Shown here: in pieces, positions 12,947 through 26,497 of the stretch
Numbering within the stretch: position 1 is the first letter of the stretch
Layout: each line of letters starts with the position of its first letter
From: an uncultured bacterium
GTDB taxonomy: Bacteria > Vulcanimicrobiota > Xenobia > Xenobiales > Xenobiaceae
Direction of reading: 5' to 3'
Length of the DNA: 64,000 nt
NCBI GenBank assembly: GCA_934644775.1
Contig: CAKUDB010000001.1
Span: forward strand, 36,441 to 100,440
Program-made: the position numbers and the translations under genes
Notes under the pieces: generated by a model
What the model was told of the DNA's origin: nothing
What the model saw: only the letters and a program-made list of their open reading frames with translations
Database searches by the model: none

Positions 12947-13459
12947 TTGCTATTTTTAGTCTTTGTTTATCTTTTTATCATCTTTTACTTATTTATTTTC
13001 TCTATAAATTTGGAACAAGCTCAGGCTAAAGCTGAAACTGCTGCGGCCGAAATTAACGCTATTACCAAAGATTGCAACCAGAGCTGGGCTTTAGATTGTC
13101 AATCTCAACCTTGGTGCGCCGCTTTTGCTACTGGCATCTTGGCTAAAAATGGCGTTATGGACTTTAGCAATTGCTCTAATGTAAACTATACTCCCACTTT
13201 GGTTGAGTGGTCTAAGAGCGAAGGTACTTGGAGCCAAGCTGGAGGCGATTATGAACCTCAATCTGGCGATATGATTATGTTCGACTGGGACAACACTCGC
13301 TCTGGTGCCGATCATGTAGGTATTGTAGTTAGCTACGATAATTCTACTGGAGTTGTCACTACTGTTGAAGGTAACAGCGGCTCTCCTGGAGCTGTCAGAG
13401 TAAAAACTTATGATCGTAACCAAGCTTGCGTAATGGGGTATATATCTCCCAACAAATAA
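12947..13459 (+). pseudogene. Orphan CHAP-domain gene fragment (C-terminal 135 aa homologous to the CHAP domains of the three downstream paralogs, closest to paralog 3); N-terminal 20 codons derive from a poly-T tract and are probably not coding
   Basis: Homology begins at AAAEINAITKDCNQSWALDCQSQPWCAAF. It runs through GDMIMFDWDNTRSGADHVGIV...TVEGNS...GYISPNK. There is no upstream GH73 or coiled-coil sequence and no RBS. A possible in-frame TTG lies at about 13010. Confidence 0.45.
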
Positions 13460-13547
13460 AGAGCAAGTAAAGCTCTGATATATGTTAAGCTTATCTTATA
13501 AGCAGCCTTCTACACTAGGAAGGTTGCTTATTTTTTTTATTTGCAAT

Positions 13548-13607: not shown

Positions 13608-13692
13608 GCTAATTGACAATAGACAGAACGGACAATCGGAGGCCAGGGGCCCAGTTGTTTTTTTTGTGATAGGTTAGGAGAAGAATTATTGC

Positions 13693-16600
13693 ATGTCATT
13701 AGATAAGATTTCCAGCTTTTTAGGTATATCGGGTATTTCTGCTACCACCTCCAGCGCTGCTGCGCCTAGCAATAGTAGTTTAGGTTTTGCTACTAACGAT
13801 TCTATTTCTTTATCTGGCTCTGAAGCTATCAACGCTTTCGGATCGCTTAGTGTTGCTTCCTTAGACGATGAAGCTGCCGCTACTCAAAGTGTCGAAGGTG
13901 CCGAAGCGGCTGCTGCTCGAGCTACCCAAGCTGGTGTTAAAGCTGAAGAAGCTGCCGACAAAACTGTCAAGGCCAATGCCGACGATGAAAAGGCTCAGGC
14001 TAAAGCTAATTTAACTGGCGAAGAAGCCCGAGCCCAGGAGGCTGCCCAAGCTGAAAAGGCAGCCACTCAAGTTAAAACCCAAACTGAAGCTGCCGAGCAA
14101 GCCAAAACGGCTGCTGCTGCCAACGCCAATGTCGATGAGGCCAACACCGATTTAGAAAAAGCCCAGGCTGAGTTAGAAAAAGTTATCAACGAAGGCGACC
14201 AAGAGGGCAAAGAGGCCAACACGGCTGAAACTTTGGGCACTTTAGAGGCCGAAATGGAGCAGCTTAAAAAAGAGCAAGAGAAGAAGGCCCAAGAGCGCGA
14301 AGCCTTAGAGCAAAAACAAGCCCAATTAGTGGAAGATTTAGCCGAAGCCCAAGCCGACGGCGATCAAGAAAAAGTTAAACAACTTAGCCAAGAGCTGGAT
14401 CAAGTTAATCAGCAACTGAGCGCTTCTCAAGACGATCTTAGTTCTTTGCAAAATCGCATTTCCAATTTAGGTGATACTATCGACTCTACTCGCAACCAAC
14501 TCGATCAAGAAAATGCTGCCAAAGCCCAGAATCAGCAAGACAAAGTAAATAGCGCCCAGAGCGCTCAGCAAAACGCCGCTTCTAATGTCGAGCAAGCCCA
14601 AGCCCAGGCTACTTCGGCCAACGAGCAATCCCAAGCTGTTCAGCAAGCGGCTAGCCAGGCTGGCCAGGCTGCTACCGAGGCTAATGCGGCTGCCCAAGCT
14701 TCCCAGAGCGACGCTGCCAAAGCTGCTTCCGAAGCTCAAGACTCTAAGTCTAAGGCCGAGCAAGCTAAAGCCGACATGGAACAGCTTAAGTCTCAAGCTA
14801 CCCAAGCTCGCCAAGAAGCTACCACTAAAGCTGCCGAAGCTAATAAGGCCGATTCTGAAGTATCTCAGGCCCGGTCGGCTTTAGAAGCGGCCAAGGCAGC
14901 TAAAAAAATTATCGAAGATAAAGATGGCAATACCCAGCAAGTGCCAGACGAAGAAGCTATCGCTTCGGCCCAGTCGGCCTTAGACTCTGCCCAAGCTAAA
15001 GCCGAGGCCGCCCACAGCGCCGCCGATCAAGCTGAAAATAAAGCTGCTCAGTTAGAGAACCAGCTCGAGGCCGCCGAAGGTAAGTCGGAGCAAGCCCAAA
15101 ACCAAGCCACTCAGGCTAGCCAAGCTTCCGATCAGGCTGAAACTAAAGCTACCGACGAAGCTAGTAAAGCCGATCAAGCCCAAACTGAGGCTACCGAAGC
15201 TGATAACCAAGCCCAAGATGCGGCTGGCCAGGTTAATAGCGCCGATCAGAAAGCGGCTAAAGCTGGAGACACTGCCAACCAAATTGACGATAAGGCCCAA
15301 AAGGCTAAAGACGGCGTAGAGGCTGTGGAAGCGGCCAACGCTGCCGACCAAGCCGCCGCCGACAGTGCCCAAGATACGGCTGATCAGGCTAAAGACGACG
15401 CCGAGCAAACTAAAGACGGTCAAGCTGCCGCTACCGACGGAGTTAAAGACGCCTCTAAAGATGGTGCTAAAGACGGTGCCAAGATCGATCCCGAGAAGTT
15501 GCCCGACGGTGTCAAGATCGACAAGAATGGTAAGATGGTCGACTCTCAAGGCCATCAAGTTAATGCCGAAGGTAAGCGCGTCGACGAAAATGGCAAGGTC
15601 ATGAGCGAAGAAGAGATCGCGGCTGCCGATAAAGCTAAGGCCGAAGAAGCCAAATCTAAAGAAAGCTCTGGTGAAGCTGCCGACAATAAGAGCGACTTCG
15701 AAAAAGCTACCGGCACTAGCAACGAAGATTTGCAAAAGCTGATCAACCAACTCGGCCAGCAAATCGCCAACCAAGGGGCGGCTCAACAGGCTGCGGGTAA
15801 TAACGGCGGCTCCGGTGGTGGCGGCAACTATGGCGGCGGTAATTCTGGCGGCGGCAACTATGGTGGCGGTGGTACCGGCAGCGTAGGTGGCAGCGGCGGC
15901 AGCGGCTCAGTCGCTTCGGCTGGCCAGGCTGGCTCGGTTGGCAAAGTAGCCCTTAGCGATCAAAACGAGCAAGCTATGGCTAAAGCTATCGACAGCTTTT
16001 TGGCTGAGCAAGGCTCGGATGCTCCCGAAGGTACTGGCGCTCTCTTTGTCAAGGCTGGTAAAGAAAATGATGTCGATCCTCTCATTTTGGTCTCTATTGC
16101 CGGCCAAGAAACCCAGTGGGGCAAGACGGGTATCGGCATCAACGGTTGGATGGGCGTAGGCGCTTACGACTCCGATCCTAACAATGCCACCCGCAACTCT
16201 AAGTTCTCCGGCGTAGAGAATCAAATCAATGTCGGTGCCCGAACCTTCCACAACTTGCGTGAAAAGGGCGGAGCCTCTTCAGCCGATTCTATCGCTGCCC
16301 AGACTTCGGCAGTTAATAAAGCCGGCTGGGCTACCGACCAAAATTGGCATAACGGCGTCACCAGCATCTACCAAAATAAGGTAGCTCCTTATGTGCAAGC
16401 CAAGATGGAAGAAATAAAGGCTTCTTCTCCTAGTGGTGGCCCAGGTATCGATGCTGCTATAAATGAGGCTCTCTCTATGGAAGGTATGACTGAAGGTGGC
16501 AACGCTGCTCAGATCAATGCCATTACCAAAGATTGCAATAAGAGCTGGGCTCTCGATTGTCAGCAATATCCTTGGTGCGCTGCTTTTGCTACCGGTATTT

Positions 16601-16914
16601 TGGCTAAGAATGGCGTAGAAGACTTCTCCGGTTGCGACAACGTCAACTATACTCCCACTTTGGTCAATTGGTCGCAAGGCAAAGGCACTTGGAACCACGC
16701 CAGTGGCGATTATTCACCTAAGAAGGGCGATATGATCTTCTTCGATTGGGACGGATCCCGTACCAGCCCCGATCACGTAGGCTTAGTAGTTAATTACGAT
16801 TCCAACAGCGGCACCATTACTACCGTTGAAGGTAATAGTAGCAACTCTGTAAGAGTTAAAACTTACAACCGCAACGACTCTTGCGTATTAGGCTATACGT
16901 CTATTGGCGACTAG
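13693..16914 (+). CDS. Coiled-coil / Gly-rich linker / GH73 N-acetylglucosaminidase / CHAP amidase-peptidase multidomain peptidoglycan hydrolase, paralog 1 (1073 aa)
   Basis: RBS aggagaag sits upstream. Residues 60-640 are A/Q/E/K-rich heptad coiled coil. A GGSGGGGNYGGG linker follows. The GH73 motifs are AGQETQWGKTG (matches ESGWG) and WATDQNW (matches YATDxxY). The CHAP motifs are YPWCAAFATGIL (Cys), GDMIFFDWDGSRTSPDHVGLVV (His) and TVEGNS. No N-terminal signal peptide. Confidence 0.85.
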   Translation: MSLDKISSFLGISGISATTSSAAAPSNSSLGFATNDSISLSGSEAINAFGSLSVASLDDEAAATQSVEGAEAAAARATQAGVKAEEAADKTVKANADDEKAQAKANLTGEEARAQEAAQAEKAATQVKTQTEAAEQAKTAAAANANVDEANTDLEKAQAELEKVINEGDQEGKEANTAETLGTLEAEMEQLKKEQEKKAQEREALEQKQAQLVEDLAEAQADGDQEKVKQLSQELDQVNQQLSASQDDLSSLQNRISNLGDTIDSTRNQLDQENAAKAQNQQDKVNSAQSAQQNAASNVEQAQAQATSANEQSQAVQQAASQAGQAATEANAAAQASQSDAAKAASEAQDSKSKAEQAKADMEQLKSQATQARQEATTKAAEANKADSEVSQARSALEAAKAAKKIIEDKDGNTQQVPDEEAIASAQSALDSAQAKAEAAHSAADQAENKAAQLENQLEAAEGKSEQAQNQATQASQASDQAETKATDEASKADQAQTEATEADNQAQDAAGQVNSADQKAAKAGDTANQIDDKAQKAKDGVEAVEAANAADQAAADSAQDTADQAKDDAEQTKDGQAAATDGVKDASKDGAKDGAKIDPEKLPDGVKIDKNGKMVDSQGHQVNAEGKRVDENGKVMSEEEIAAADKAKAEEAKSKESSGEAADNKSDFEKATGTSNEDLQKLINQLGQQIANQGAAQQAAGNNGGSGGGGNYGGGNSGGGNYGGGGTGSVGGSGGSGSVASAGQAGSVGKVALSDQNEQAMAKAIDSFLAEQGSDAPEGTGALFVKAGKENDVDPLILVSIAGQETQWGKTGIGINGWMGVGAYDSDPNNATRNSKFSGVENQINVGARTFHNLREKGGASSADSIAAQTSAVNKAGWATDQNWHNGVTSIYQNKVAPYVQAKMEEIKASSPSGGPGIDAAINEALSMEGMTEGGNAAQINAITKDCNKSWALDCQQYPWCAAFATGILAKNGVEDFSGCDNVNYTPTLVNWSQGKGTWNHASGDYSPKKGDMIFFDWDGSRTSPDHVGLVVNYDSNSGTITTVEGNSSNSVRVKTYNRNDSCVLGYTSIGD

Positions 16915-16946
16915 TAAAATAGAGGCTTAATATAAGTCCTCCTAAA

Positions 16947-17000
16947 AGCTCTCCTTAACGGTCAAATTAAACGACTTGGCCGGGCGGGGGAGCTTTTTTT
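16947..17000 (+). terminator. Terminator-like hairpin plus T7 downstream of paralog 1
   Basis: agctctcc-N30-gggggagc-ttttttt lies inside the 131-bp 3' flank. That flank is identical after paralogs 1 and 2. Confidence 0.45.
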
Positions 17001-17036
17001 GTCCAGTTAGTTAAAGATTAGTTAAATAAGTTTAGT

Positions 17037-17096
17037 GTAAAATAAATGTTAAAACCATTTTTTAATTCTAGATAAAGATGGGAACATAATTGATAA
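17037..17096 (+). promoter_or_regulatory. Conserved promoter-like module copy 2: GTAAAATAAATGTTAA-N16-TAGATA ... ATTGATAA
   Basis: Same spacing as copy 1. It lies 98 nt upstream of the paralog 2 ATG. Confidence 0.45.
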
Positions 17097-17172
17097 TGGG
17101 AGTAATACGAGTAGGAAGGGTGCCGCTAGGTGCCGCCTTTTTTCGTTTACAGAAAGTTAGGAGAGTTACTGA

Positions 17173-20100
17173 ATGTCATTAGATAAGATCTCTAGCTTCT
17201 TAGGTATATCGGGTATTTCTGCTACCACCTCCAGCGCTGCTGCGCCTAGCAATAGTAGTTTAGGTTTTGCTACTAACGATTCTATTTCTTTATCTGGCTC
17301 TGAAGCTATCAACGCTTTCGGATCGCTTAGTGTTGCTTCCTTAGACGATGAAGCTGCCGCTACTCAAAGTGTCGAAGGTGCCGAAGCGGCTGCTGCTCGA
17401 GCTACCCAAGCTGGTGTTAAAGCTGAAGAAGCTGCCGACAAAACTGTCAAGGCCAATGCCGACGATGAAAAGGCTCAGGCTAAAGCTAATTTAACTGGCG
17501 AAGAAGCCCGAGCCCAGGAGGCTGCCCAAGCTGAAAAGGCAGCCACTCAAGTTAAAACCCAAACTGAAGCTGCCGAGCAAGCCAAAACGGCTGCTGCTGC
17601 CAACGCCAATGTCGATGAGGCCAACACCGATTTAGAAAAAGCCCAGGCTGAGTTAGAAAAAGTTATCAACGAAGGCGACCAAGAGGGCAAAGAGGCCAAC
17701 ACGGCTGAAACTTTGGGCACTTTAGAGGCCGAAATGGAGCAGCTTAAAAAAGAGCAAGAGAAGAAGGCCCAAGAGCGCGAAGCCTTAGAGCAAAAACAAG
17801 CCCAATTAGTGGAAGATTTAGCCGAAGCCCAAGCCGACGGCGATCAAGAAAAAGTTAAACAACTTAGCCAAGAGCTGGATCAAGTTAATCAGCAACTGAG
17901 CGCTTCTCAAGACGATCTTAGTTCTTTGCAAAATCGCATTTCCAATTTAGGTGATACTATCGACTCTACTCGCAACCAACTCGATCAAGAAAATGCTGCC
18001 AAAGCCCAGAATCAGCAAGACAAAGTAAATAGCGCCCAGAGCGCTCAGCAAAACGCCGCTTCTAATGTCGAGCAAGCCCAAGCCCAGGCTACTTCGGCCA
18101 ACGAGCAATCCCAAGCTGTTCAGCAAGCGGCTAGCCAGGCTGGCCAGGCTGCTACCGAGGCTAATGCGGCTGCCCAAGCTTCCCAGAGCGACGCTGCCAA
18201 AGCTGCTTCCGAAGCTCAAGACTCTAAGTCTAAGGCCGAGCAAGCTAAAGCCGACATGGAACAGCTTAAGTCTCAAGCTACCCAAGCTCGCCAAGAAGCT
18301 ACCACTAAAGCTGCCGAAGCTAATAAGGCCGATTCTGAAGTATCTCAGGCCCGGTCGGCTTTAGAAGCGGCCAAGGCAGCTAAAAAAATTATCGAAGATA
18401 AAGATGGCAATACCCAGCAAGTGCCAGACGAAGAAGCTATCGCTTCGGCCCAGTCGGCCTTAGACTCTGCCCAAGCTAAAGCCGAGGCCGCCCACAGCGC
18501 CGCCGATCAAGCTGAAAATAAAGCTGCTCAGTTAGAGAACCAGCTCGAGGCCGCCGAAGGTAAGTCGGAGCAAGCCCAAAACCAAGCCACTCAGGCTAGC
18601 CAAGCTTCCGATCAGGCTGAAACTAAAGCTACCGACGAAGCTAGTAAAGCCGATCAAGCCCAAACTGAGGCTACCGAAGCTGATAACCAAGCCCAAGATG
18701 CGGCTGGCCAGGTTAATAGCGCCGATCAGAAAGCGGCTAAAGCTGGAGACACTGCCAACCAAATTGACGATAAGGCCCAAAAGGCTAAAGACGGCGTAGA
18801 GGCTGTGGAAGCGGCCAACGCTGCCGACCAAGCCGCCGCCGACAGTGCCCAAGATACGGCTGATCAGGCTAAAGACGACGCCGAGCAAACTAAAGACGGT
18901 CAAGCTGCCGCTACCGACGGAGTTAAAGACGCCTCTAAAGATGGTGCTAAAGACGGTGCCAAGATCGATCCCGAGAAGTTGCCCGACGGCGTCTTTGTGG
19001 ATAAGAACGGTACCCTTTACAGTGAAGATGGTAAGAAGCTTCCCGAGGGCAGCACCCTCAACGAAGATGGCAAGTTAGTTAATGGCGAGGGTAAGCTCAT
19101 CGACAATAAGGGTAACCTGATCAACGAAGATGGGCAGCGCATTGGGGCCGACGGCAAGGTCATGAGTGAAGAAGAAATTGCTGCTGCCGACAAAGCCAAG
19201 GCCGACGAAGCTCAAGCTAGTGAAGCTAAAGCCAACGAGAGTGGTGCCAAGGCTGCCGACAATAAGAGCGACTTCGAAAAAGCTACCGGCATTAGCAACG
19301 AAGATTTGCAAAAGCAGATCGACCAACTCGGCCAGCAAATCGCTGCTCAACAGGCTGCAGCTGAAAATGGCGGCGGTGGCGGCGGCAACTATGGCAGCGG
19401 AGGCGGCGGCGTAGGTGGCGTCGGTGGTTCCGGTGGCGCTGGCCAAGTCGCTTCCGGAGCTTCAGTTAAGAGGAGTAGCGCCGCTGGCGATCTCGATCTT
19501 TCTAAGTGCTCCGACGAAGATATTGCTAAAGCTATAGATGGCTTCTTAGTCGAAAAAGGCTCGCCAGCTCCTGCCGGTACTGGGGATCTCTTCGTTGAAG
19601 CGGGTAAGAAATACGACGTCGATCCTTTGGTCTTACTCTCTATTGCTGGTCAGGAGACTCGCTGGGGTACCGCCGCAGGAAGCGTAGGTATCAACGGCTG
19701 GATGGGCGTAGGGGCCTACGACTCCGATCCTAATAACTCTACTCGCAATCCCATATTCAGAGGTGTAGAGAAGCAAATCTTTATGGGTGGCAAAACCTTT
19801 GCCAAATTGCGCGGGACGGGTGGATCTTCCTCTGATGCCTCTATTGCCGATCAGGCTGCAGCTGTCAATAAAGCCGGCTGGGCTACCGATCAGAATTGGC
19901 ACGATGGCGTAACTAAGATCTACCATGATCAAGTTGTTCCTTACATGTTGGAAAACTTGCCCGGTGCCGAGCTTAAGGGCAACAAGGGCATTGAAGGGGC
20001 CCTCGACGAGGCCCTCTCTATGGAAGGTATGACTGAAGGTGGCAACGCTGCTCAGATCAATGCCATTACCAAAGATTACAATAAGAGCTGGGCTCTCGAT

Positions 20101-20457
20101 TGTCAGCAATATCCTTGGTGCGCTGCTTTTGCTACCGGTATTTTGGCTAAGCATGGTGTAGAAGACTTCTCCGGTTGCTCCAATGTCAACTCTACCAACT
20201 ACTTGGTCAGTTGGTCGCAAGGCGAAGGCACTTGGAACCACGCCAGTGGCGATTATTCACCTAAGAGGGGCGATATGATCTTCTTCGATTGGGACGGATC
20301 CCGTACCAGCCCCGATCACGTAGGCTTGGTAGTTAATTACGATTCCAACAGCGGCACCATTACTACCGTTGAAGGTAATAGTAGCAACTCTGTAAGAGTT
20401 AAAACTTACAACCGCAACGACTCTTGCGTATTAGGCTATACGTCTATTGGCGACTAG
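17173..20457 (+). CDS. Coiled-coil / GH73 / CHAP multidomain peptidoglycan hydrolase, paralog 2 (1094 aa)
   Basis: The first ~1.8 kb is nucleotide-identical to paralog 1 apart from a few synonymous changes in codons 6-9. The central ~1 kb is divergent, with a different DGK-repeat number and a roughly 70%-identical GH73 domain. The 3' 440 nt plus 131-nt flank are again near-identical. Confidence 0.85.
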   Translation: MSLDKISSFLGISGISATTSSAAAPSNSSLGFATNDSISLSGSEAINAFGSLSVASLDDEAAATQSVEGAEAAAARATQAGVKAEEAADKTVKANADDEKAQAKANLTGEEARAQEAAQAEKAATQVKTQTEAAEQAKTAAAANANVDEANTDLEKAQAELEKVINEGDQEGKEANTAETLGTLEAEMEQLKKEQEKKAQEREALEQKQAQLVEDLAEAQADGDQEKVKQLSQELDQVNQQLSASQDDLSSLQNRISNLGDTIDSTRNQLDQENAAKAQNQQDKVNSAQSAQQNAASNVEQAQAQATSANEQSQAVQQAASQAGQAATEANAAAQASQSDAAKAASEAQDSKSKAEQAKADMEQLKSQATQARQEATTKAAEANKADSEVSQARSALEAAKAAKKIIEDKDGNTQQVPDEEAIASAQSALDSAQAKAEAAHSAADQAENKAAQLENQLEAAEGKSEQAQNQATQASQASDQAETKATDEASKADQAQTEATEADNQAQDAAGQVNSADQKAAKAGDTANQIDDKAQKAKDGVEAVEAANAADQAAADSAQDTADQAKDDAEQTKDGQAAATDGVKDASKDGAKDGAKIDPEKLPDGVFVDKNGTLYSEDGKKLPEGSTLNEDGKLVNGEGKLIDNKGNLINEDGQRIGADGKVMSEEEIAAADKAKADEAQASEAKANESGAKAADNKSDFEKATGISNEDLQKQIDQLGQQIAAQQAAAENGGGGGGNYGSGGGGVGGVGGSGGAGQVASGASVKRSSAAGDLDLSKCSDEDIAKAIDGFLVEKGSPAPAGTGDLFVEAGKKYDVDPLVLLSIAGQETRWGTAAGSVGINGWMGVGAYDSDPNNSTRNPIFRGVEKQIFMGGKTFAKLRGTGGSSSDASIADQAAAVNKAGWATDQNWHDGVTKIYHDQVVPYMLENLPGAELKGNKGIEGALDEALSMEGMTEGGNAAQINAITKDYNKSWALDCQQYPWCAAFATGILAKHGVEDFSGCSNVNSTNYLVSWSQGEGTWNHASGDYSPKRGDMIFFDWDGSRTSPDHVGLVVNYDSNSGTITTVEGNSSNSVRVKTYNRNDSCVLGYTSIGD

Positions 20458-20489
20458 TAAAATAGAGGCTTAATATAAGTCCTCCTAAA

Positions 20490-20543
20490 AGCTCTCCTTA
20501 ACGGTCAAATTAAACGACTTGGCCGGGCGGGGGAGCTTTTTTT
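20490..20543 (+). terminator. Terminator-like hairpin plus T7 downstream of paralog 2 (identical copy of 16947-17000)
   Basis: Identical sequence to the post-paralog-1 element. Confidence 0.45.
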
Positions 20544-20658
20544 GTCCAGTTAGTTAAAGATTAGTTAAATAAGTTTAGTGTAAAATGTTAGTCCTTTAAT
20601 TAACATATTCCCCGTGGCTCAAAGCAGAGGCTTTACGCCACCCTTAGTAAAAATTAAA

Positions 20659-20718
20659 AGTTAAATAAATGTTAAATCAGTAGATAAATTCTAGATAAAA
20701 TAAAGAAGTGCTTGATAA
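20659..20718 (+). promoter_or_regulatory. Conserved promoter-like module copy 3: TTAAATAAATGTTAA-N16-TAGATA ... CTTGATAA
   Basis: Same architecture as copies 1 and 2. It lies 90 nt upstream of the paralog 3 ATG at 20787. Relative to the paralog 2 upstream region, this one carries an about 75-bp insertion (20580-20655) containing inverted repeat atgtta-N10-taacat. Confidence 0.45.
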
Positions 20719-20786
20719 TATAGACAACGATACCTGTACATAGGTTGGATAGGCCTTGTGCTCGTAAAGGTAGGAGGGATTTTACT

Positions 20787-23234
20787 ATGACTATCAATAG
20801 CAACTACGACAATTCTGCTGCCATTAGACAGCAAGAAGAGGCTCGTCGTCAGGAGGAAGCCCGTCGTCGAGAAGAGGCTCGTCGCCAGGAAGAAGCTCGC
20901 AAAGCTGAAGAAGCTCGCAAGGCTCAAGAAGCTCAGCAAGCTAAAGAAGCCGAAGAGGCTCGCAAAGCTCAAGAAGCCCAAAGGGTCAGAGAAGAAGACA
21001 AAGTGGCCGTTACCAACAGCGAAGCAGCCGAATCTGGCAAAAGGGTAAAAGTTGCTTCTTTAGACGATGAAGGTGGCAGCTTCTCTGCCAGAGGAGAAGA
21101 GTTTAGCGGCACTAGCAGCAACTACGGCGCTAGAAAGTCCGAATATTCCACCCATGTTGCTTCCAGCGGTAGAACGCACGGCGGTGGTGGCGGCACTTTC
21201 AGCAGCAAGACCGAAGACAAGAGTTTTCTTGGAAAAGTCAAGGATGTTCTTGGCGGTGCTAAAGATAAAATTGTCGATCATATAAAAGACAAAGTCGCCG
21301 ACGGTTTAGATGGCGCTTCCGATTTAGCCGATAAGATCGGCATGGATGGCCTTTCTGACGATCTCGAAGAGATGGCTGACAAAGTTAGAGGTGAAGACGG
21401 CGAAGAAGTTTCCGACGCCGACAAAGCTAAGGCTAAAGACGGCGTAGAAAAAACTAAAGAAGAGATTAAAGAGAAGATTAAGGAAAAGAAACTCGAGAAG
21501 CTCAACCAAGAGAAAGAAGTCCAGACTAAGAAGCAAGAAGAGCTGGAGAAAAAGCGCGACGAGACTATCGAAGAGTTGGAAAAAGCCCAAGCTGCTGGCG
21601 ATCAGGCCAAAGTTAAAGAGCTTACCAACAAGCTCGACGGTATCAACGACGAACTTTCTGAAGTAAACGATAAGCTCGACAAGATCAATAAAAAGATCGA
21701 CGAGCTGGAGCCCAAGCCCGAAGAGGAAATGGAGAAGCTCCAGAAAGACATGGACGAGCTTAATAAGCAAGAAGAGGCTAAGCTCAAAGAAAAAGAAGAG
21801 CTGGAGAAGAAGCAAGAAGAGCTCGTTGAAGAGTTGGCTGCTGCCAAAGCGGCTGGCGACCAGGAGAAGATTGCCGAAATTACCAGCAAGTTGCAAGGCG
21901 TCAACGAAGACTTAGAAAAAGTCAACGGCGAGCTGGAAGATATTCAGTCACAAAAGCAGAACCTCCAGAAAGATATTGACAAGGTTCAGGGCGAGATCGA
22001 CGCCAAGAATCCTCCTGCTGAAGAGGCCGCTCCGGCTCAGGGTGCCGAAGGTAAGCAAGCTGCTTCTAACGAGGCCTCTGGGGCTCAGGGTGCCGCTAAT
22101 GGCAATAATGGTGCCAATGGCACTAATGGTGGCGGTGGCAACAATGGTGGCGGCGGTACCGGAGGTGTCAACGGTGGCGGTGGTGGCCGTGGCACTGGTG
22201 GTGTAGGTGGTACTGGCGCTGCTCAGGGTGCTGGCAATACTGGAGCTGCTGCTCGCACTACTGCGGCTGGCGACATCGATATTTCCAAGTGCTCCGACGC
22301 CGATGTGGCCAAGGCTATCGATGGCTTCTTGGCTTCTAAGGGCTCTTCGGCTCCCGAAGGTACCGGCGCTATGTTCGTTAAGGCCGGTAAAGAGAATAAT
22401 GTCGATCCCTTAGTATTGCTCTCTATTGCTGGTCAGGAGACCCAGTGGGGCAAGACGGGTATCGGTATCAACGGTTGGATGGGCGTAGGTGCCTACGACT
22501 CCGATCCTAACAACGCTACTCGCAATTCCAAGTTCTCTGGCGTAGAGAATCAGATCAATGTCGGAGCCCGAACTTTCGCCAACTTGCGCGCTAAGGGCGG
22601 ATCTTCTGCCGACGCCTCTATCGCCGAGCAGACTTCCGCTGTAAATAAAGCCGGTTGGGCTACCGACCAGAATTGGCATAAGGGCGTCACCAGCATCTAC
22701 CATGATCAGGTAGGCGCTTACATGCTCGAGCACCTCAAAGGTGCCGAAACTAAAGGCGGCAAAGGCGTGTCCGGTGCTCTCACCGAAGCTGGCTCTATGG
22801 TAGGCATGACCGAAAGTGGCAACGCTGCCCAGATCAATGCCATTACCAAAGACTGGAACCAGAGCTGGGCTCTCGATTGTCAGCAGCAGCCTTGGTGCGC
22901 CGCTTTCGCTACTGGTATTTTGGCTAAGCATGGTGTCATGGACTTTAGCAAGTGCTCCAATGTCAACTATACTCCCACTTTGGTAGAGTGGTCTAAGAGC
23001 CAGAAAACTTGGCAGCAGGGTGGCAACGGCTATGCTCCTAAGGCTGGCGATATGATTATGTTCGACTGGGACAACACCCGCAGCGGTGCCGACCACGTGG
23101 GTATCGTAGAAAGTTACGACGCAGCCAGCGGTACCGTTACTACTATTGAAGGCAATAGCAGCAACTCCGTACGTCGCAAGACTTATAATGTCAACGCCGC
23201 TTGTATTATGGGCTTCATTATGCCTAATAAATAA
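20787..23234 (+). CDS. Coiled-coil / GH73 / CHAP multidomain peptidoglycan hydrolase, paralog 3 (815 aa from ATG 20787)
   Basis: Start trimmed to the ATG with RBS taggaggg 8 nt upstream. The ORF-track TTG at 20745 is unlikely. The N-terminus has (EEARRQ)n hexapeptide repeats. E/K-rich coiled coil carries repeated AAGDQ(A/E)K(V/I)KEL...L.GVN.(E/D)L motifs. A GGGGNNGGGGTGG linker follows. The GH73 domain has AGQETQWGKTG and WATDQNW. The CHAP domain has QPWCAAFATGIL and DHVGIVESYD. Confidence 0.85.
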   Translation: MTINSNYDNSAAIRQQEEARRQEEARRREEARRQEEARKAEEARKAQEAQQAKEAEEARKAQEAQRVREEDKVAVTNSEAAESGKRVKVASLDDEGGSFSARGEEFSGTSSNYGARKSEYSTHVASSGRTHGGGGGTFSSKTEDKSFLGKVKDVLGGAKDKIVDHIKDKVADGLDGASDLADKIGMDGLSDDLEEMADKVRGEDGEEVSDADKAKAKDGVEKTKEEIKEKIKEKKLEKLNQEKEVQTKKQEELEKKRDETIEELEKAQAAGDQAKVKELTNKLDGINDELSEVNDKLDKINKKIDELEPKPEEEMEKLQKDMDELNKQEEAKLKEKEELEKKQEELVEELAAAKAAGDQEKIAEITSKLQGVNEDLEKVNGELEDIQSQKQNLQKDIDKVQGEIDAKNPPAEEAAPAQGAEGKQAASNEASGAQGAANGNNGANGTNGGGGNNGGGGTGGVNGGGGGRGTGGVGGTGAAQGAGNTGAAARTTAAGDIDISKCSDADVAKAIDGFLASKGSSAPEGTGAMFVKAGKENNVDPLVLLSIAGQETQWGKTGIGINGWMGVGAYDSDPNNATRNSKFSGVENQINVGARTFANLRAKGGSSADASIAEQTSAVNKAGWATDQNWHKGVTSIYHDQVGAYMLEHLKGAETKGGKGVSGALTEAGSMVGMTESGNAAQINAITKDWNQSWALDCQQQPWCAAFATGILAKHGVMDFSKCSNVNYTPTLVEWSKSQKTWQQGGNGYAPKAGDMIMFDWDNTRSGADHVGIVESYDAASGTVTTIEGNSSNSVRRKTYNVNAACIMGFIMPNK

Positions 23235-23264
23235 AGTATAAGATGGCGCTCTACTATTAAGGGC

Positions 23265-23308
23265 AAAAAAGGGGACAGCTTCTTTTAGGAGCTGTCCCTT
23301 ATTTTTTT
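23265..23308 (+). terminator. Strong rho-independent terminator after paralog 3
   Basis: aaaaaaggggacagct-tcttttagg-agctgtccctt-attttttt. The stem is 10 bp with no mismatch. Confidence 0.7.
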
Positions 23309-23473
23309 CCCTAATTATCGCTACTCTTCTCAATTGATGCTGTTAGGCAGATGAAAAAAACTTTACTAACTGTTAATTTTGATTTATTATCTAGGTTAAG
23401 ATGGGCTGTTTGTGTGCATTTTTATATGTCCATCAAATTTTTTACTCCCAGGGATTGAGGAGGAACATAATTT

Positions 23474-26400
23474 ATGCAAAATCTTCTGGCCCGCACCAAA
23501 GGGAGCTCGCGTTGGCTGGGCTTGTGCCTTTTCGCTATAGCCTTCCTGTGTGCTGCTCTCATTTCCGGTTGCGGCAGTTCCGGTAGCTCCGGCGGCGGTG
23601 GCACTTCTGATTCTGCTTCCTCAAAAGGAACTACCGATGTTATTTTCCATTTTAATGAATCAAGTTCAGCTAAAATATTAGCTCGGGCTATCCCCCAGGG
23701 TACTACCCATATCCGTTTTACTGGCAACGATAATAACCGTGAGAAGCGCTATGGCCCTACTGAAAAAGCCTACGCTTCTACTATCACTTTAAATAATGTT
23801 CCGGTTAGTGTTACCGGTTTTGTTCTTGAGTGCATCAAAAAAGATGGCAAAAACGTCGAACTTACCGCTATTGTTCCTGTTGATAAGGTATCATTAACTG
23901 AAGACAAGGAAAACCTTGTTATAATTAGCGATTCCTACGTTAAACCGCTTAGCGAAGTTGTTAAAAGTGTAACTAATACTCCTAGTGAGTTTAATCCCTT
24001 TGCCATTGGCATGAGTGAAAGTTTTACAGTTATTGCTACTTTAGAAGGTGGTCAGACTGTAGCTCTTACTCCTTACTTAACATTTACCAGCAGCGATCCC
24101 AAGGTAGCTACTGTCGAGCAGAATGGTTTTGACGGTGCTAAAGTTGTTGCCCAAGGCGGCGGCACAGCCACTATTTCTGGTGAAGTGTTAGGCGTAAAAA
24201 CTAATATTACGGTGACAGTCGATCCTGGTAAACGCGAGACAGGTGTTAAGTTCGTCCCTAGTACAACAAAAGTGACCCAGGGACTGTCCGTACCTCTTGA
24301 AGCCAAAATGGTTTGGAATGATGGGACAACAACAGAAATTGATAAAGATCGTGTAACATCATACACTGCCGATCCTAAAGATGCAGTTACTATTGAGAAA
24401 ACTGACAAGGGTTGCAAAGTCACCGCTGATAAAGGCGCTAAAGAAGGAACTAAAGTAACTATCACTATGACAGTTACAAATGAAGGTGGAGATCCTTTCA
24501 CCGGTAAAGCTACTGTTGAAATTACCAATAAAACGGTTGTGTCTATTGCTATCTCTAATGATACTACTGGCGATATGCTCAATAAGCTTTATCCTACCGG
24601 CAAAAATAACAACAGCTGTCAGTTTACCGCTACGGTTACTTGGAGCGATGGCGCAAAAACTGATGAAACTAATACAGTTACTTGGACGAGTTCTACCCCT
24701 ACTGTCGCTGCTTTCGATGAAACTACTAAAGGCAAGTTGAATGCTGTTGCTGTCGGTGAAACTACTGTATTTGCTGAACGTGATGGAATAAAATCTGAAA
24801 ACTCTACCATTACTGTAAAAGAACCTGGTGTTACTGAGCTTAAGACTGATGTTTATAATCCTGAAGAAGGTTTCGTAGCTTACATTAAGGATGGCGTTGG
24901 TCGGCCTTACCCTATCACTGTGACTGCCGTCTATGCTAATGGTGAAGAAAAAACTGTTGCTTTAAGTGACCTTACCTCTGAATTCTTTAGAACTGAAGGT
25001 GCAACCAGCTCAGAATATGTCGAGTTCCAAGAGGGTGAAAAGGGTGCAATTAACATTGTTCCTAAGAGCGTTACTGACGAGTCGGATAGTTTCATCAGAT
25101 TCACTTACGAAGGAAAATCTAAAGATGTAAAAATTGCCATTAAAGATGTACTTCCTGAGAAGATAGCTATAAACTTAGTAGATACAACTACTGACAAGAC
25201 TTATAACATCAACCCCACCGACGGCACTTATGAGATTGGTATACCTTATGGCCGCTCTTACAAAATTGTTGTACGTGCCCAAGCTAATAACGGTGAGGAC
25301 TTAGGTGACATCTCTGGTAACTATGAGTTTAAAGATAGCTTAGTTAGAGATGAAAAATTTGAGCATGGCTTAGCCTATCCGATCGTCGTTGATGGTATGT
25401 CTAAAGATAAGGAATGGTCTTCCAGTGCCAAAATCATTAGCTATGCCCAAGATTACAATAGAGCTATATTCTCTGGTGACGATAGTACGCCGCTTGGCGA
25501 TCGTGTCTATACGCAATACAAGACTATTGAGGAAAAGGATGGGGTAAAGAGCGTTGTAATTAAAAACGTAAGCGAGGACGCTCGAACAATAACTGTTACC
25601 GGACAGAGTAAAGCTGACCAGATAGAAGCTTTCCAGGTAAAAGTTACTTTGAAGATGCCTGCTGTTGACAAGTATATAGCCGTTTATAACGACAAGGATA
25701 ACGGGACTACTTTTGACATTCCTCGTGGCGTTGACTTTGACATAACCAATTCTGGCCAACATAAAGTTAAGGCTCAGATGTCTTACGCAAAATGTGAAGC
25801 CTCAGCAGAGTTCCCAGAAGAGGACAATTTGAAAGATGTCACTGAGAATATGACTATAGATGAAGAATCTATTACTCCTCTCTTAAACACTTTCTTGGTT
25901 GAAAAGAAGGCTGAGGGTAGCTACTCCAGCGTAACTGATGAAGATGCGTATAGTAGCCGTAATAAGATCGGCCAGACCGGCAATATTACCATGAAGAATA
26001 AGTGGGATGACAAGTCTGAAAACTTCGGTTGTGAAGCTGCTTCGGGTAAGCCTTTCCAGAGCTTTAATGTTGAACCGGCTGAGTTCACTTTGAAACTTGA
26101 GAGGCCTACTATCGTTAGCTGTAAGCCTGTAGTCTTAGGTGAAGATGGTAACCAAGTTACAGCTGAAACTGACGGTAAATATCATTTCAAAGCTAATACA
26201 AAGTTCCAATTCTTGTTGAAAGATGTAGAACTTAGTGATAAAGGTAAACTTGATCACTTAGAAGGTAATAGTACTATTAGCAGTATCTACTATGAGGGAA
26301 GGTATATCGATATAGTTAAGCTCTTGGATCCTAAGAAAATAGACAGCTTGTATCAAGTTCAAGATAGTGAAGAGCTTAGCGCTGGTGCCGCTAGCGATAT

Positions 26401-26497
26401 TAAGATTACTCCTGACCCTCACCAGTACTACAATGTTTCTGATTATGTTGATAAACATAAAGATGACGTAACCATAACTGTTGTTTTGGACAAGTAA
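23474..26497 (+). CDS. Surface lipoprotein with multiple bacterial Ig-like (Big_2) domains, 1007 aa
   Basis: Signal peptide plus lipobox ...CAALISGCGSSGSSGGGG. Repeated Big_2-like segments are present, for example ATVEQNGFDGAKVVAQGGGTATISGEVLG...TVTVDP. RBS ggaggaa sits upstream. Confidence 0.7.
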   Translation: MQNLLARTKGSSRWLGLCLFAIAFLCAALISGCGSSGSSGGGGTSDSASSKGTTDVIFHFNESSSAKILARAIPQGTTHIRFTGNDNNREKRYGPTEKAYASTITLNNVPVSVTGFVLECIKKDGKNVELTAIVPVDKVSLTEDKENLVIISDSYVKPLSEVVKSVTNTPSEFNPFAIGMSESFTVIATLEGGQTVALTPYLTFTSSDPKVATVEQNGFDGAKVVAQGGGTATISGEVLGVKTNITVTVDPGKRETGVKFVPSTTKVTQGLSVPLEAKMVWNDGTTTEIDKDRVTSYTADPKDAVTIEKTDKGCKVTADKGAKEGTKVTITMTVTNEGGDPFTGKATVEITNKTVVSIAISNDTTGDMLNKLYPTGKNNNSCQFTATVTWSDGAKTDETNTVTWTSSTPTVAAFDETTKGKLNAVAVGETTVFAERDGIKSENSTITVKEPGVTELKTDVYNPEEGFVAYIKDGVGRPYPITVTAVYANGEEKTVALSDLTSEFFRTEGATSSEYVEFQEGEKGAINIVPKSVTDESDSFIRFTYEGKSKDVKIAIKDVLPEKIAINLVDTTTDKTYNINPTDGTYEIGIPYGRSYKIVVRAQANNGEDLGDISGNYEFKDSLVRDEKFEHGLAYPIVVDGMSKDKEWSSSAKIISYAQDYNRAIFSGDDSTPLGDRVYTQYKTIEEKDGVKSVVIKNVSEDARTITVTGQSKADQIEAFQVKVTLKMPAVDKYIAVYNDKDNGTTFDIPRGVDFDITNSGQHKVKAQMSYAKCEASAEFPEEDNLKDVTENMTIDEESITPLLNTFLVEKKAEGSYSSVTDEDAYSSRNKIGQTGNITMKNKWDDKSENFGCEAASGKPFQSFNVEPAEFTLKLERPTIVSCKPVVLGEDGNQVTAETDGKYHFKANTKFQFLLKDVELSDKGKLDHLEGNSTISSIYYEGRYIDIVKLLDPKKIDSLYQVQDSEELSAGAASDIKITPDPHQYYNVSDYVDKHKDDVTITVVLDK

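What the first reader, a model, noticed from the sequence alone, without database searches (positions are those of the whole stretch)
13693..23234. Three tandem paralogs of a giant, signal-less coiled-coil + GH73 + CHAP peptidoglycan hydrolase
Each gene encodes 600-650 aa of A/Q/E/K-rich heptad coiled coil, a Gly-rich linker, a GH73 domain and a C-terminal CHAP domain. The GH73 domain has catalytic-type motifs AGQETQWG and WATDQNW. The CHAP domain has nucleophile PWCAAF and base DHVG(L/I)V. Two lytic domains behind a very long coiled coil, without any Sec signal, lipobox or TM segment, and present in triplicate in a diderm, is not an architecture I can assign to a described family. The nearest analogies are FtsEX-controlled coiled-coil hydrolases (PcsB, CwlO, EnvC). 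Those are far shorter, secreted and have a single catalytic domain. Phage tape-measure or tail-associated lysins are another analogy, but no phage genes are nearby. No immunity-like small ORFs lie between the copies. This argues against toxin cassettes and for an endogenous cell-wall remodelling, predation or cell-shape role. A short motif VASLDDE near residue 55-75 is conserved in all three N-termini and may be an export or processing signal.
Basis: partly seen in the sequence, partly recalled or inferred. Interest (0 to 1): 0.85.

Follow-up and report, generated by a model that had tools for sequence, protein, structure and literature searches.

The report
Leaderless giant cell-wall hydrolase gene array
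A gut bacterium from the little-known Xenobia lineage carries a tandem array of very large enzymes that cut bacterial cell wall yet have no recognisable export signal; they belong to an undescribed, lineage-restricted protein family whose export route and target are still unknown.

Summary

The "600-650 aa heptad coiled coil" is overstated. AlphaFold gives a disordered N-terminus, two long helical hairpins (only about 300 aa are confident), a beta-hairpin repeat and a Gly-rich linker. Copy 3 has a different, shorter N-terminal region.

The array is conserved with 2-4 copies across gut and rumen Xenobia/UBP9 (Eremiobacterota) MAGs. Shorter leaderless relatives occur in environmental lineages. 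VASLDDE is part of a conserved ~65-aa N-terminal module. A helical-hairpin motif is as conserved as the catalytic core. Relatives add RTX, Peptidase_M91 or phage-lysozyme domains. Copies 1 and 2 are mosaics homogenised by gene conversion.

The best reading is non-Sec-exported lytic enzymes, probably aimed at neighbouring bacteria. An endogenous, partner-regulated remodelling role is not excluded. I rate it a new variant of a known kind, of moderate-to-high interest.

The parts
12947..13459 (+). Truncated fourth paralog ('copy A' remnant). Only the CHAP domain survives (homology from about 13043), and it abuts the divergent His-phosphatase gene.
   Evidence: CHAP scores 42.6 bits. The domain is 94-96% identical to the CHAP of the first array gene in L001/L002/L003. 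A related strain contig, L039, still has GH73+CHAP at this position.
13693..16914 (+). Copy 1 (type B), 1073 aa: N-terminal module, helical hairpins, beta-hairpin repeat, Gly-rich linker, GH73, CHAP.
13693..13890 (+). Conserved ~65-aa N-terminal module of copy 1 (MSLDKISSFLGISGIS ... DSISLSGSEAINAFGS..VASLDDE). It is predicted disordered apart from a short helix at residues 3-9.
   Evidence: Alignment A2 covers 15 genes from 10 genomes. A local HMM scores 57-90 bits only on family members. pLDDT is about 30. Residues 1-20 and 41-60 are 66-73% conserved, against 26-34% just downstream.
14170..14592 (+). Conserved helical hairpin of copy 1 (residues ~160-300), with the turn at Gly223-Asp224 in the motif EREALEQKQAQLVEDLAEAQADGDQEKVKQLSQELDQVNQQL.
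   Evidence: AlphaFold gives H174-222 and H225-310 with pLDDT 93-97. The motif occurs in all four paralog types, in distant members and in enzyme-less neighbours. Block identity of 79-89% equals that of the GH73 core.
15493..15603 (+). Short beta-hairpin repeat segment (KIDPEKLPDGVKIDKNGKMVDSQGHQVNAEGKRVDENGKVM). It is expanded by about 21 aa in copy 2 (about 18973-19176).
   Evidence: AlphaFold shows strand pairs with pLDDT about 85; see also the translations.
15772..15942 (+). Gly-rich disordered linker of copy 1.
   Evidence: pLDDT is about 30; see also the translation.
15949..16425 (+). GH73 (glucosaminidase) domain of copy 1.
16474..16908 (+). CHAP domain of copy 1.
17173..20457 (+). Copy 2 (mosaic), 1094 aa. 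The N-terminal 600 aa are identical to copy 1. The GH73 domain (19492-19944) is of type C. The CHAP domain (20017-20451) is of type B.
20784..23234 (+). Copy 3 (type D), 816 aa from ATG 20784: ER/K-like helix, motif DKVAVTNSEAAESGKRVKVASLDDE (about 20994-21074), Gly/Ser-rich stretch, amphipathic helices carrying the same hairpin motif, Gly-rich linker, GH73 (22275-22721), CHAP (22794-23228).
   Evidence: The catalytic part is 96-98% identical to its orthologs, against 78-89% for neighbouring housekeeping proteins.
16915..17043 (+). 129-nt segment after copy 1, identical to 20458-20586 after copy 2. It is the 3' end of the conversion tract.
23270..23300 (+). Strong terminator-like hairpin closing the array.
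   Evidence: 14-bp stem followed by a T-run.
23474..26497 (+). Linked 1007-aa lipoprotein with Ig-like (Big_2) repeats. It is a possible partner; its role is unknown.
   Evidence: It lies immediately downstream of the array in 12 loci, including L013 where the other flanks differ. It has a classical lipobox. It is clade-restricted and fast-evolving, at 41-61% identity where the hydrolase D copy is 97%.

Best explanation
The three genes, plus one decayed copy, belong to an undescribed, lineage-restricted family of leaderless, modular peptidoglycan hydrolases found in gut and rumen Xenobia/UBP9 (phylum Eremiobacterota/Vulcanimicrobiota).

SHOWN. Each protein has a conserved, disordered ~65-aa N-terminal module and a strongly conserved helical hairpin. 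These are followed by a poorly conserved Ala/Gln/Glu-rich helical spacer and a Gly-rich linker. The C-terminus carries two catalytically intact wall-cutting domains: a GH73 N-acetylglucosaminidase and a CHAP cysteine amidase/endopeptidase. The array is old, with four ortholog groups shared across genera. It evolves by gene conversion, domain-cassette exchange and copy loss.

INFERRED. Both catalytic domains can only act on peptidoglycan outside the cytoplasmic membrane, and the organism uses ordinary Sec signals elsewhere. The proteins are therefore most likely exported by a non-Sec, probably one-step, route that recognises the N-terminal module and/or the hairpin. A type III/flagellar-type export, as used by FlgJ, is the leading but unproven candidate. 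I think the most likely role is as extracellular lytic enzymes against neighbouring, largely Gram-positive, gut bacteria. The producer's outer membrane would shield its own wall, which would explain the missing immunity genes.
For: Architecture and catalytic integrity.

Leaderless state: it is real and contrasts with classical signals on neighbouring exported proteins. One homolog (P0020) instead carries an N-terminal TM anchor, which is consistent with an extracytoplasmic site of action.

Family distribution: tandem arrays of 2-4 giant genes occur in Hadza-gut, Ca. Bruticola, UBA4705 and rumen MAGs. Forms of 260-590 aa occur in environmental Xenobia/Vulcanimicrobiota.

Conserved N-terminal elements: the N-terminal module and the hairpin are conserved as strongly as the catalytic core.

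Modularity typical of secreted effectors: L015 carries the module plus helices plus 4x CHAP + GH73 + RTX repeats + Peptidase_M91, and the next gene carries helices + RTX + M91. L018 carries CHAP + GH73 + phage tail lysozyme. Enzyme-less helical variants sit within arrays. From my knowledge of RTX proteins, the repeats fold in extracellular calcium.

Turnover and mosaicism: copy-number and mosaic turnover are documented.

No immunity ORFs.

Nearest relatives of the domains: the nearest phage relatives of the GH73 domain are tail-associated lysins of phages of Gram-positive hosts. The nearest solved structures are Gram-positive autolysins and endolysins.

Export-route lead: the N-terminus resembles that of E. 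coli FlgM (z = 3.7). Flagellar genes lie 2-8 kb from short-form members in L028, L025 and L020.
Against: No secretion system was identified in the window or next to any giant array, and whole genomes could not be scanned.

The FlgM resemblance fails formal tests: hhalign probability is 1%, and no Pfam FlgM or Rod-binding hit appeared in 47 N-termini.

The GH73 domain is closer to LytB/AtlE than to FlgJ.

The N-terminal module was not found on unrelated cargo in large catalogues. Those catalogues also lack the known giants, so this negative is weak.

The catalytic domains, especially copy D, are under strong purifying selection, and short forms are stand-alone genes in varied contexts. Both features fit a housekeeping role at least as well as an effector role.

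The arrays lie near outer-membrane biogenesis genes: TamB in the window and BamA-Skp-LpxD in L018.

No recognised cell-wall-binding domain for Gram-positive targets was detected.
Confidence: 0.4

Rival explanations
1. Endogenous cell-wall remodelling or daughter-cell separation enzymes. In this reading they work like PcsB, CwlO, RipC or EnvC: the conserved helical hairpin is gripped by a membrane partner (FtsEX-like or lineage-specific) that switches the hydrolase domains on at the right place.
Against: As far as I know, all characterised members of that class carry Sec signals; these proteins have none, although the organism uses classical signals. No ftsEX is in the window. Having 3-4 paralogs with copy-number polymorphism between strains and fusions to RTX, M91 and phage-lysozyme domains in relatives is unusual for division hydrolases. 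To my knowledge, GH73+CHAP is not a typical diderm housekeeping set.
Confidence: 0.28
2. Effector-immunity type antibacterial toxins delivered cell-to-cell by a contact-dependent machine (T6SS, T7SS-like or a contractile injection system). The conserved N-terminal region would act as the loading domain, and the linked Ig-like lipoprotein as immunity or receptor.
Against: No PAAR, VgrG, Hcp, LXG, WXG, MIX or Rhs domain and no secretion genes were detected in the window or loci. There is no small immunity gene after each copy. A single 1000-aa lipoprotein separated by a strong terminator is an unlikely immunity protein for 3-4 divergent enzymes.
Confidence: 0.12
3. Flagellum-associated wall hydrolases. 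In this reading they are functional analogues of the FlgJ muramidase domain, exported through the flagellar type III apparatus to open the wall for the rod. The giant paralogs would be elaborations of that role.
Against: No Rod-binding or FlgM domain was found in 47 N-termini. hhalign gives 1-3% probability. No flagellar genes lie near any giant array or in the 64-kb window. Three to four 100-kDa paralogs with CHAP, RTX or M91 domains exceed any need for rod insertion. The only cultured member of the phylum lacks flagella (PMC9758169).
Confidence: 0.08
4. Cytoplasmic autolysins that reach the wall only when the membrane is breached (programmed or stress-induced lysis, endolysin-like), or remnants of phage or tailocin tail-lysin / tape-measure proteins.
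For: They are leaderless like canonical endolysins. PHROGs hits to endolysin and baseplate-hub lysozyme cover the C-terminus of copy 3. The GH73 domain is about 33% identical to tail lysins of SPO1-like phages.
Against: No holin, phage structural or tailocin genes are present in the window or in any syntenic locus. No relative was found in 2.9 million viral contigs. The chromosomal position is conserved across genera, with four ortholog groups. Conserved N-terminal elements are unnecessary for a simple endolysin.
Confidence: 0.07

Closest known systems
FtsEX-controlled coiled-coil hydrolases and activators (PcsB, CwlO, RipC/Cg1735, EnvC)
   Different: This family has no Sec signal and no ftsEX nearby. 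It carries two catalytic domains (GH73 + CHAP) rather than one, is 2-3 times longer, and has an extra conserved disordered N-terminal module. It is present as 3-4 tandem paralogs and has relatives with RTX/M91/lysozyme fusions.
FlgJ of beta/gamma-proteobacteria (flagellar rod cap + GH73 muramidase, exported by the flagellar type III system)
   Different: This family has no Rod-binding domain and is not in a flagellar operon. Its GH73 domain is closer to LytB/AtlE. It also has an additional CHAP domain, long helical hairpins and a multi-copy arrangement.
Phage virion-associated lysins and dual-domain endolysins (SPO1-like tail lysins; LysK/phi812 hub CHAP; streptococcal CHAP+glucosaminidase endolysins such as B30, the last recalled from memory)
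   Same: The same pair of catalytic activities occurs in a leaderless protein. The GH73 domain is about 33% identical to Bacillus phage tail lysins. The CHAP fold matches LysK, LysGH15 and Ly7917.
   Different: The locus is chromosomal, syntenic and non-phage. No hits were found in viral contigs. The N-terminal 450-750 aa have no phage counterpart.
Polymorphic toxins and secreted antibacterial wall hydrolase effectors (T6SS Tae/Tge, T7SS LXG toxins)
   Same: They are leaderless. A conserved N-terminal part combines with swappable C-terminal enzymatic modules. Paralogs are tandem with recombination between copies, and the targets are wall-degrading.
   Different: No recognised trafficking domain, no cognate immunity genes and no secretion-system genes are nearby. 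The catalytic domains are conserved rather than hypervariable.

Membership tests
GH73 / Pfam Glucosaminidase (PF01832) | HMM score above the curated gathering threshold | tested here: met
   Scores are 33.5, 33.2 and 33.1 bits against a cut-off of 30.2 on the isolated C-terminal thirds, and 32.0 bits for full-length copy 3. The margin is small; in full-length scans of copies 1 and 2 the hit is not listed at E <= 0.01.
GH73 / Pfam Glucosaminidase (PF01832) | Catalytic glutamate in the E-x-x-W/G motif and the aromatic-ATD motif | tested here: met
   The Glu of GQETQWG is invariant in 16 family members and aligns with the ALESNWG region of LytB, which holds the catalytic Glu. WATD.NW is invariant.
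GH73 / Pfam Glucosaminidase (PF01832) | Lysozyme-like GH73 fold | tested here: met
CHAP (PF05257), NlpC/P60 clan | HMM above threshold, with Cys and His catalytic residues | tested here: met
   Scores are 42-45 bits against a cut-off of 26. Cys in PWCAAF and His in DHVG(L/I)V are conserved in all copies, including the remnant.
CHAP (PF05257), NlpC/P60 clan | Papain-like alpha+beta fold | tested here: met
FtsEX-controlled coiled-coil hydrolases (PcsB/CwlO/RipC/EnvC) | Sec-dependent export to the extracytoplasmic side | tested here: not met
   No signal peptide, lipobox or TM segment is present.
FtsEX-controlled coiled-coil hydrolases (PcsB/CwlO/RipC/EnvC) | Antiparallel coiled-coil hairpin preceding the catalytic domain | tested here: met
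   AlphaFold gives hairpins H174-222/H225-310 and H315-409/H420-571, with pLDDT above 90 for parts.
FtsEX-controlled coiled-coil hydrolases (PcsB/CwlO/RipC/EnvC) | Functional coupling to FtsEX (binding and activation) | not testable with these tools
   No ftsEX lies in the 64-kb window or in the syntenic loci scanned.
FlgJ | N-terminal Rod-binding domain (PF10135) | tested here: not met
   There was no hit at E <= 10 in 47 family N-termini. hhalign against E. coli FlgJ aligns only 27 columns around the catalytic Glu, with probability 3%.
FlgJ | Location in, or co-regulation with, flagellar genes | tested here: not met
   No flagellar genes are present in the window or next to giant arrays. Loose proximity occurs only for short forms in L028, L025 and L020.
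Phage tape-measure / tail-associated lysins | Encoded among phage or tailocin structural genes | tested here: not met
   The context is chromosomal housekeeping. No relatives were found in viral contigs. PHROGs hits are restricted to the catalytic domains of copy 3.
Polymorphic toxin / effector-immunity systems | Cognate immunity gene directly downstream of each toxin gene | tested here: not met
   The intergenic gaps of 258-326 nt hold only a 30-aa ORF and promoter- and terminator-like elements.
Polymorphic toxin / effector-immunity systems | Recognised N-terminal trafficking domain (PAAR, LXG, VENN, MIX, Rhs, TPS) | tested here: not met
   There were no Pfam or NCBIfam hits in the N-terminal regions.
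Polymorphic toxin / effector-immunity systems | Conserved N-terminal part with variable C-terminal toxin modules | tested here: inconclusive
   Within genomes the N-terminal 600 aa of copies B and C are 97-100% identical while their GH73 domains are 67-80% identical. Relatives carry RTX/M91/lysozyme modules. However, all copies in this window carry the same two domain types.

The most novel reading that the evidence does not exclude
The conserved N-terminal module, together with the helical hairpin, is the recognition signal of a so-far-unrecognised (or re-purposed type III/flagellar-type) one-step export route in Xenobia. This route would launch a whole class of giant, rod-like, multi-enzyme 'lytic lances' (GH73, CHAP, phage lysozyme, RTX, M91 protease). 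With these, the diderm gut bacteria would kill or feed on Gram-positive neighbours without needing immunity proteins.
Probability: 0.2. Interest if true: 0.8.

Novelty: new variant of a known kind. Interest (0 to 1): 0.58.

Why it matters
Wall hydrolases have to get out of the cytoplasm, and essentially all characterised housekeeping ones use Sec or Tat. This is a phylum-level family of catalytically intact GH73(+CHAP) enzymes that consistently lacks such signals. It carries instead its own conserved N-terminal module and hairpin. That implies either an unknown export or targeting mechanism or an unusual lifestyle (lytic antagonism or predation) in Xenobia, a candidate class that has not been cultured, as far as I know, and that occurs in human, primate and ruminant guts.

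The family gives a concrete handle for finding that mechanism: a ~65-aa module, a 40-aa hairpin motif and a linked lipoprotein. It is also a source of new dual-activity lysins. The locus is a clean natural example of concerted evolution, in which the N-terminal 1.8 kb and the 3' 0.6 kb are homogenised while a divergent catalytic cassette is kept. If the proteins turn out to be ordinary division hydrolases, the result would still extend the PcsB/RipC paradigm to a leaderless, two-enzyme form.

Tried and rejected
(1) Assembly artefact for the identical 1.8-kb repeat: rejected. An independent 569-kb scaffold (L047) has the same structure at 99.89% identity. Other genomes also show within-genome identity of 97-100% between copies B and C.

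(2) Hidden upstream start with a signal peptide: rejected. ORFs run from the first start codon after a stop. The extra 13 codons of copy 3 are the ribosome-binding site and are conserved as DNA.

(3) Phage origin: a scan of viral contigs found nothing. The phage collection gives GH73 hits of at most 35% identity.

(4) Riboswitch or other leader RNA, for example the c-di-AMP class often found upstream of wall hydrolases: no Rfam match at E <= 1 over 12800-23600. An alignment of the three upstream regions shows only terminator and promoter similarity.

(5) N-terminal module on other cargo. The word-indexed search of 5.8 billion proteins and the exhaustive search of 1.84 billion representatives returned only a 79-aa fragment. 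A metagenome scan returned only family members. These negatives are uninformative, because the catalogues also lack the known giants.

(6) FlgM homology of the module. The motif-level resemblance to authentic E. coli FlgM gives z = 3.7 in a post hoc test, but hhalign probability is 1% and there are no Pfam hits. I kept it as a lead only.

(7) Double-glycine (C39/PCAT) leader: some distant members have GG at residues 15-22, but the main group does not and the consensus positions do not fit. Rejected by inspection of alignment A2.

(8) T1SS C-terminal signal: unlikely, because the CHAP (or M91) domain runs to the last residue.

(9) Conserved neighbours as secretion genes. The only conserved neighbours are a BspA-LRR protein, an unknown 416-aa protein, two cyclophilins, a His-phosphatase, the Ig-like lipoprotein, GGGtGRT and an RND pump. 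Cluster c10 is phosphofructokinase. The neighbours of short forms are unrelated to each other.

Full report
WHAT IS IN THE SEQUENCE

Three long same-strand ORFs occupy 13693-16914 (1073 aa), 17173-20457 (1094 aa) and 20745-23234. The third most likely starts at ATG 20784, giving 816 aa. The 13 codons before it read AAAGGAAGGAGAGATTTT, which is a ribosome-binding site, and they are conserved in orthologs.

All three proteins end in a GH73 domain followed by a CHAP domain.
- CHAP scores 42-45 bits against a cut-off of 26.
- Glucosaminidase scores 33.1-33.5 bits against a cut-off of 30.2 when the C-terminal third is scanned alone. The margin is slim, and in full-length scans only copy 3 lists the hit.
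- The Glu of AGQETQWG aligns with the catalytic-Glu region of pneumococcal LytB.
- This Glu, GVGA.D and WATD.NW are invariant across 16 relatives.

The domain calls therefore stand.

NO CLASSICAL EXPORT SIGNAL

The highest 19-residue hydropathy is 1.07 for copies 1 and 2 and 0.84 for copy 3. The downstream lipoprotein reaches 2.46. The neighbouring cyclophilins, OEP, membrane-fusion protein and DUF4344 protein all have textbook signal peptides or lipoboxes. The organism therefore uses normal Sec signals, and these three proteins simply lack them.

The host is a diderm, as shown by TamB, AcrB/OEP and lipoproteins. The window is plainly chromosomal, carrying the S10/spc ribosomal operon, EF-G, EF-Tu, SecY and RpoA. 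No phage, flagellar, T6SS or ftsEX genes are present in the window.

(a) The N-terminal parts are not uniform 600-650-aa heptad coiled coils. In copy 1, global 3.5-residue periodicity over residues 70-620 is not significant (z <= 1.6). Copy 3 shows strong amphipathic periodicity only over about 230 aa. AlphaFold on full-length copy 1 gives the following layout:
- a short helix at residues 3-9;
- a disordered stretch at residues 13-73;
- two long helical hairpins, H174-222/H225-310 and H315-409/H420-571, with pLDDT above 90 only for about 180-300 and 330-480;
- a confidently predicted beta-hairpin repeat at residues 601-637;
- a disordered Gly-rich linker at residues 694-750;
- then the two enzymes.

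(b) Copy 3 has a different N-terminal region, 29% identical to copy 1. It begins with an EEARR-repeat helix.

(c) Copies 1 and 2 are mosaics. They are 100% identical over 13843-15492 (98% over 13693-13842), 50-78% identical across the repeat, linker and GH73, and 90-100% identical from the mid-CHAP domain to 129 nt beyond the stop.

(d) A fourth, CHAP-only remnant sits at 12947-13459.

THE FAMILY

The C-terminal region finds few close relatives. It finds many 250-450-aa proteins whose GH73 domain is about 60% identical, from MAGs labelled Eremiobacteraeota or Vulcanimicrobiota. A scan of species-representative genomes gave 37 loci. The closest are Hadza-gut MAGs, Candidatus Bruticola (Vulcanimicrobiota; Ca. 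Xenobia), UBP9/UBA4705 and goat/cattle rumen MAGs.

In all gut and rumen relatives the genes form tandem arrays of 2-4 giant GH73+CHAP proteins of 800-1100 aa, and one reaches 2040 aa. Flanks are the same as here: BspA-LRR, an unknown 416-aa protein, two cyclophilins and a His-phosphatase on one side, and a ~1000-aa lipoprotein, GGGtGRT and an RND pump on the other.

An independently assembled 569-kb scaffold is 99.89% identical to window 13474-36497 and carries the same 1073/1094/815-aa genes. The repeat structure is therefore not an artefact. None of 2.9 million viral contigs encodes a relative.

EVOLUTION OF THE ARRAY

Catalytic-domain identities define four ortholog groups, A-D.
- The window's remnant is type A (94-96% to A-type CHAP). 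A related strain contig, L039, still has GH73+CHAP at that position, so copy number varies between strains.
- Copy 1 is type B.
- Copy 3 is type D. Its catalytic part is 96-98% identical to its orthologs, while neighbouring housekeeping proteins are 78-89% identical and the linked lipoprotein only 41-61%.
- Copy 2 has a C-type GH73 domain (83-85% to C orthologs, 74% to B) but a B-type CHAP domain (88-90% to B, 71% to C).

The N-terminal 600 aa of B and C are 97-100% identical within each genome but 76-90% identical between genomes. This is the signature of ongoing gene conversion. Conversion homogenises the 5' 1.8 kb and the 3' end while a divergent GH73 cassette is retained.

CONSERVED NON-CATALYTIC ELEMENTS

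The VASLDDE motif is the end of a ~65-aa N-terminal module: M-x-LDKISxFLGISGIS, then an S/T/A-rich spacer, then DDSISLSGSEAINAFGS..VASLDDE. The module aligns across 15 genes from 10 genomes. With a local HMM it is found only in this family. Copy 3 carries only the second half (DKVAVTNSEAAESGKRVKVASLDDE), placed after its EARR helix. Short environmental members have degenerate versions (D-x-V-x-[LIF]-S-x-E).

A second element is the motif EREALEQKQAQLVEDLAEAQADGDQEKVKQLSQELDQVNQQL. It forms the tip of the first hairpin. It recurs in all four paralog types, in distant members, and in enzyme-less helical proteins that sit inside some arrays (L008:14186, L022:1914, L010:11114).

In a 10-sequence alignment the hairpin blocks are 79-89% identical to copy 1, equal to the GH73 core. 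The spacer drops to 12-57%.

MODULARITY IN RELATIVES

- L015 encodes a 1988-aa protein with the module, helices, four CHAP domains, GH73, RTX repeats and a Peptidase_M91 'effector' domain. It is followed by a gene with helices + RTX + M91.
- L018 has four tandem genes combining CHAP, GH73 and phage tail lysozyme, next to BamA-Skp-LpxD.
- One homolog (P0020) replaces the leaderless N-terminus with a TM anchor, which is consistent with action outside the membrane.

HOW IT MOST LIKELY WORKS

Shown: these are catalytically intact dual wall hydrolases on a conserved N-terminal scaffold, without Sec/Tat/lipoprotein signals, maintained by selection and reshuffled by recombination.

Inferred: they must leave the cytoplasm by a non-Sec route that reads the N-terminal module and/or the hairpin. 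A one-step route would also keep them away from the producer's own wall.

I favour extracellular lytic enzymes against neighbouring, mostly Gram-positive, gut bacteria, at confidence about 0.4. The reasons are:
- the effector-like modularity, including RTX repeats, which as I recall fold in extracellular calcium;
- the array dynamics;
- the Gram-positive-type affinities of both domains;
- the fact that a diderm secreting such enzymes needs no immunity, matching the empty intergenic gaps.

The main rival, at about 0.28, is an endogenous PcsB/RipC-like remodelling enzyme whose conserved hairpin is gripped by a membrane partner. Supporting it are the Cg1735 structural match (E = 0.11, not significant), the strong purifying selection, and the stand-alone short forms in unrelated contexts. 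Against it stand the missing signal peptide and the multi-copy, fusion-prone nature of the family.

EXPORT-ROUTE LEAD

The N-terminus resembles that of E. coli FlgM: MSIDRTSPL...TSVTLSDAQA against MSLDKISSF...DSISLSGSEA. The real FlgM sequence was fetched. A shuffle test gives z = 3.7, but the test was post hoc. hhalign gives probability 1%. No Pfam FlgM or Rod-binding hit occurs in 47 N-termini.

Flagellar genes lie 2-8 kb from short-form members in three loci:
- L028 has FliK-like, FlgF, FlgG, FliA and a FlgJ with only the Rod-binding domain.
- L025 has FliF.
- L020 has a divergent FlhA_C-domain membrane protein.
No flagellar genes lie near any giant array. I treat type III/flagellar export as the best candidate, but unproven.

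COMPARISON AND NOVELTY

The proteins work like known coiled-coil-tethered hydrolases, or like leaderless FlgJ or phage lysins. They fail defining features of each family: no Sec signal or ftsEX, no Rod-binding domain, no phage context, and no immunity genes or trafficking domains. No curated family covers the N-terminal 450-750 aa. The sources that name relatives call them only 'glucosaminidase domain-containing' or 'hypothetical'. The giants are largely missing from large protein catalogues. Literature searches found nothing on them. I classify this as a new variant of a known kind (multi-domain wall hydrolases), with a real open question about export.

Noticed in passing
window 23474-26497: A 1007-aa lipoprotein with a classical lipobox and Ig-like/Big_2 repeats always lies directly downstream of the hydrolase array, in 12 loci including one (L013) whose other flanks differ. 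It is restricted to this clade and evolves fast, at 41-61% identity where the adjacent hydrolase copy D is 97%. It may be a partner or a surface adhesin, but it is separated from the array by a strong terminator.
   Followed up: partly
window 4671-9209: A 1512-aa BspA-type leucine-rich-repeat protein (LRR_5, 616 bits) also shows no obvious signal peptide at its N-terminus and has a Lys/Arg-rich C-terminus. It is conserved upstream of the array in 8 loci. It may be a second leaderless putative surface protein in the same neighbourhood.
   Followed up: no
window 9261-10511: A conserved 416-aa protein of unknown function has no Pfam, NCBIfam or PHROGs hit. It has a helical leaderless N-terminus (MDQIGNALERIAGALERIAAAIERG) and is syntenic with the array in 8 loci.
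   Followed up: no
L015 72-6038 and 6325-10179: A rumen/gut MAG encodes a 1988-aa relative with the N-terminal module, helices, four CHAP domains, one GH73 domain, RTX repeats and a C-terminal Peptidase_M91 (NleD-like effector) domain. The next gene encodes a 1284-aa protein with helices, 16 RTX repeats and M91.
   Followed up: partly
L010 1941-8063: This locus holds a 2040-aa member of the family, whose N-terminal region before GH73 is about 1700 aa. It is followed by a 948-aa member and then an enzyme-less 390-aa helical protein carrying the same hairpin motif.
   Followed up: no
L018 2489-10861: Four tandem genes combine CHAP, GH73 and phage tail lysozyme (PF18013) domains. They lie directly upstream of a BamA-Skp(x3)-LpxD outer-membrane biogenesis cluster. 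In the window the array lies about 9 kb downstream of TamB.
   Followed up: partly
L020 5607-7298 (minus strand): A 563-aa membrane protein has a C-terminal half that matches the FlhA cytoplasmic domain (E 6e-40 to PDB 3mix). Its N-terminal half does not align to the FlhA transmembrane domain in the PDB sequence search. It lies 2.4 kb upstream of a short-form family member in a Vulcanimicrobiota MAG.
   Followed up: partly
L028 14067-18980: A flagellar gene group (FliK-like, FlgF, FlgG, a 98-aa FlgJ with only the Rod-binding domain, and a FliA-like sigma factor) lies 3.6 kb downstream of a leaderless short-form GH73 gene (9431-10480). A FlgJ without its own hydrolase would need a separate wall-cutting enzyme.
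   Followed up: partly
window 15493-15603 and about 18973-19176: A short repeat (V/I-D-x-N/D-G-K-x-V, about 9 aa per unit) is predicted by AlphaFold as a stack of beta-hairpins with pLDDT about 85. Copy 2 has roughly two more units than copy 1. Its function is unknown; wall or sugar binding is possible.
   Followed up: no
window about 20823-21000: Copy 3 begins with about 60 aa of EEARR/EEARK repeats, which look like an ER/K-type single alpha-helix. The segment is conserved in all type-D orthologs.
   Followed up: no
window 26695-28464: The GGGtGRT-family protein (PF14057, 650 bits) and the adjacent NifU-like protein are 96-100% identical across genera in which other neighbours are 60-89% identical. 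This is an unusually constrained pair of unknown role.
   Followed up: no
window 13693-23234 versus protein catalogues: The exact giant proteins, and even their orthologs from deposited MAGs, are missing from the 5.8-billion and 1.84-billion protein collections; only fragments such as the 79-aa P0121 are present. Low-complexity, repeat-rich giants of this kind are systematically under-represented, so catalogue-based negatives are weak.
   Followed up: partly
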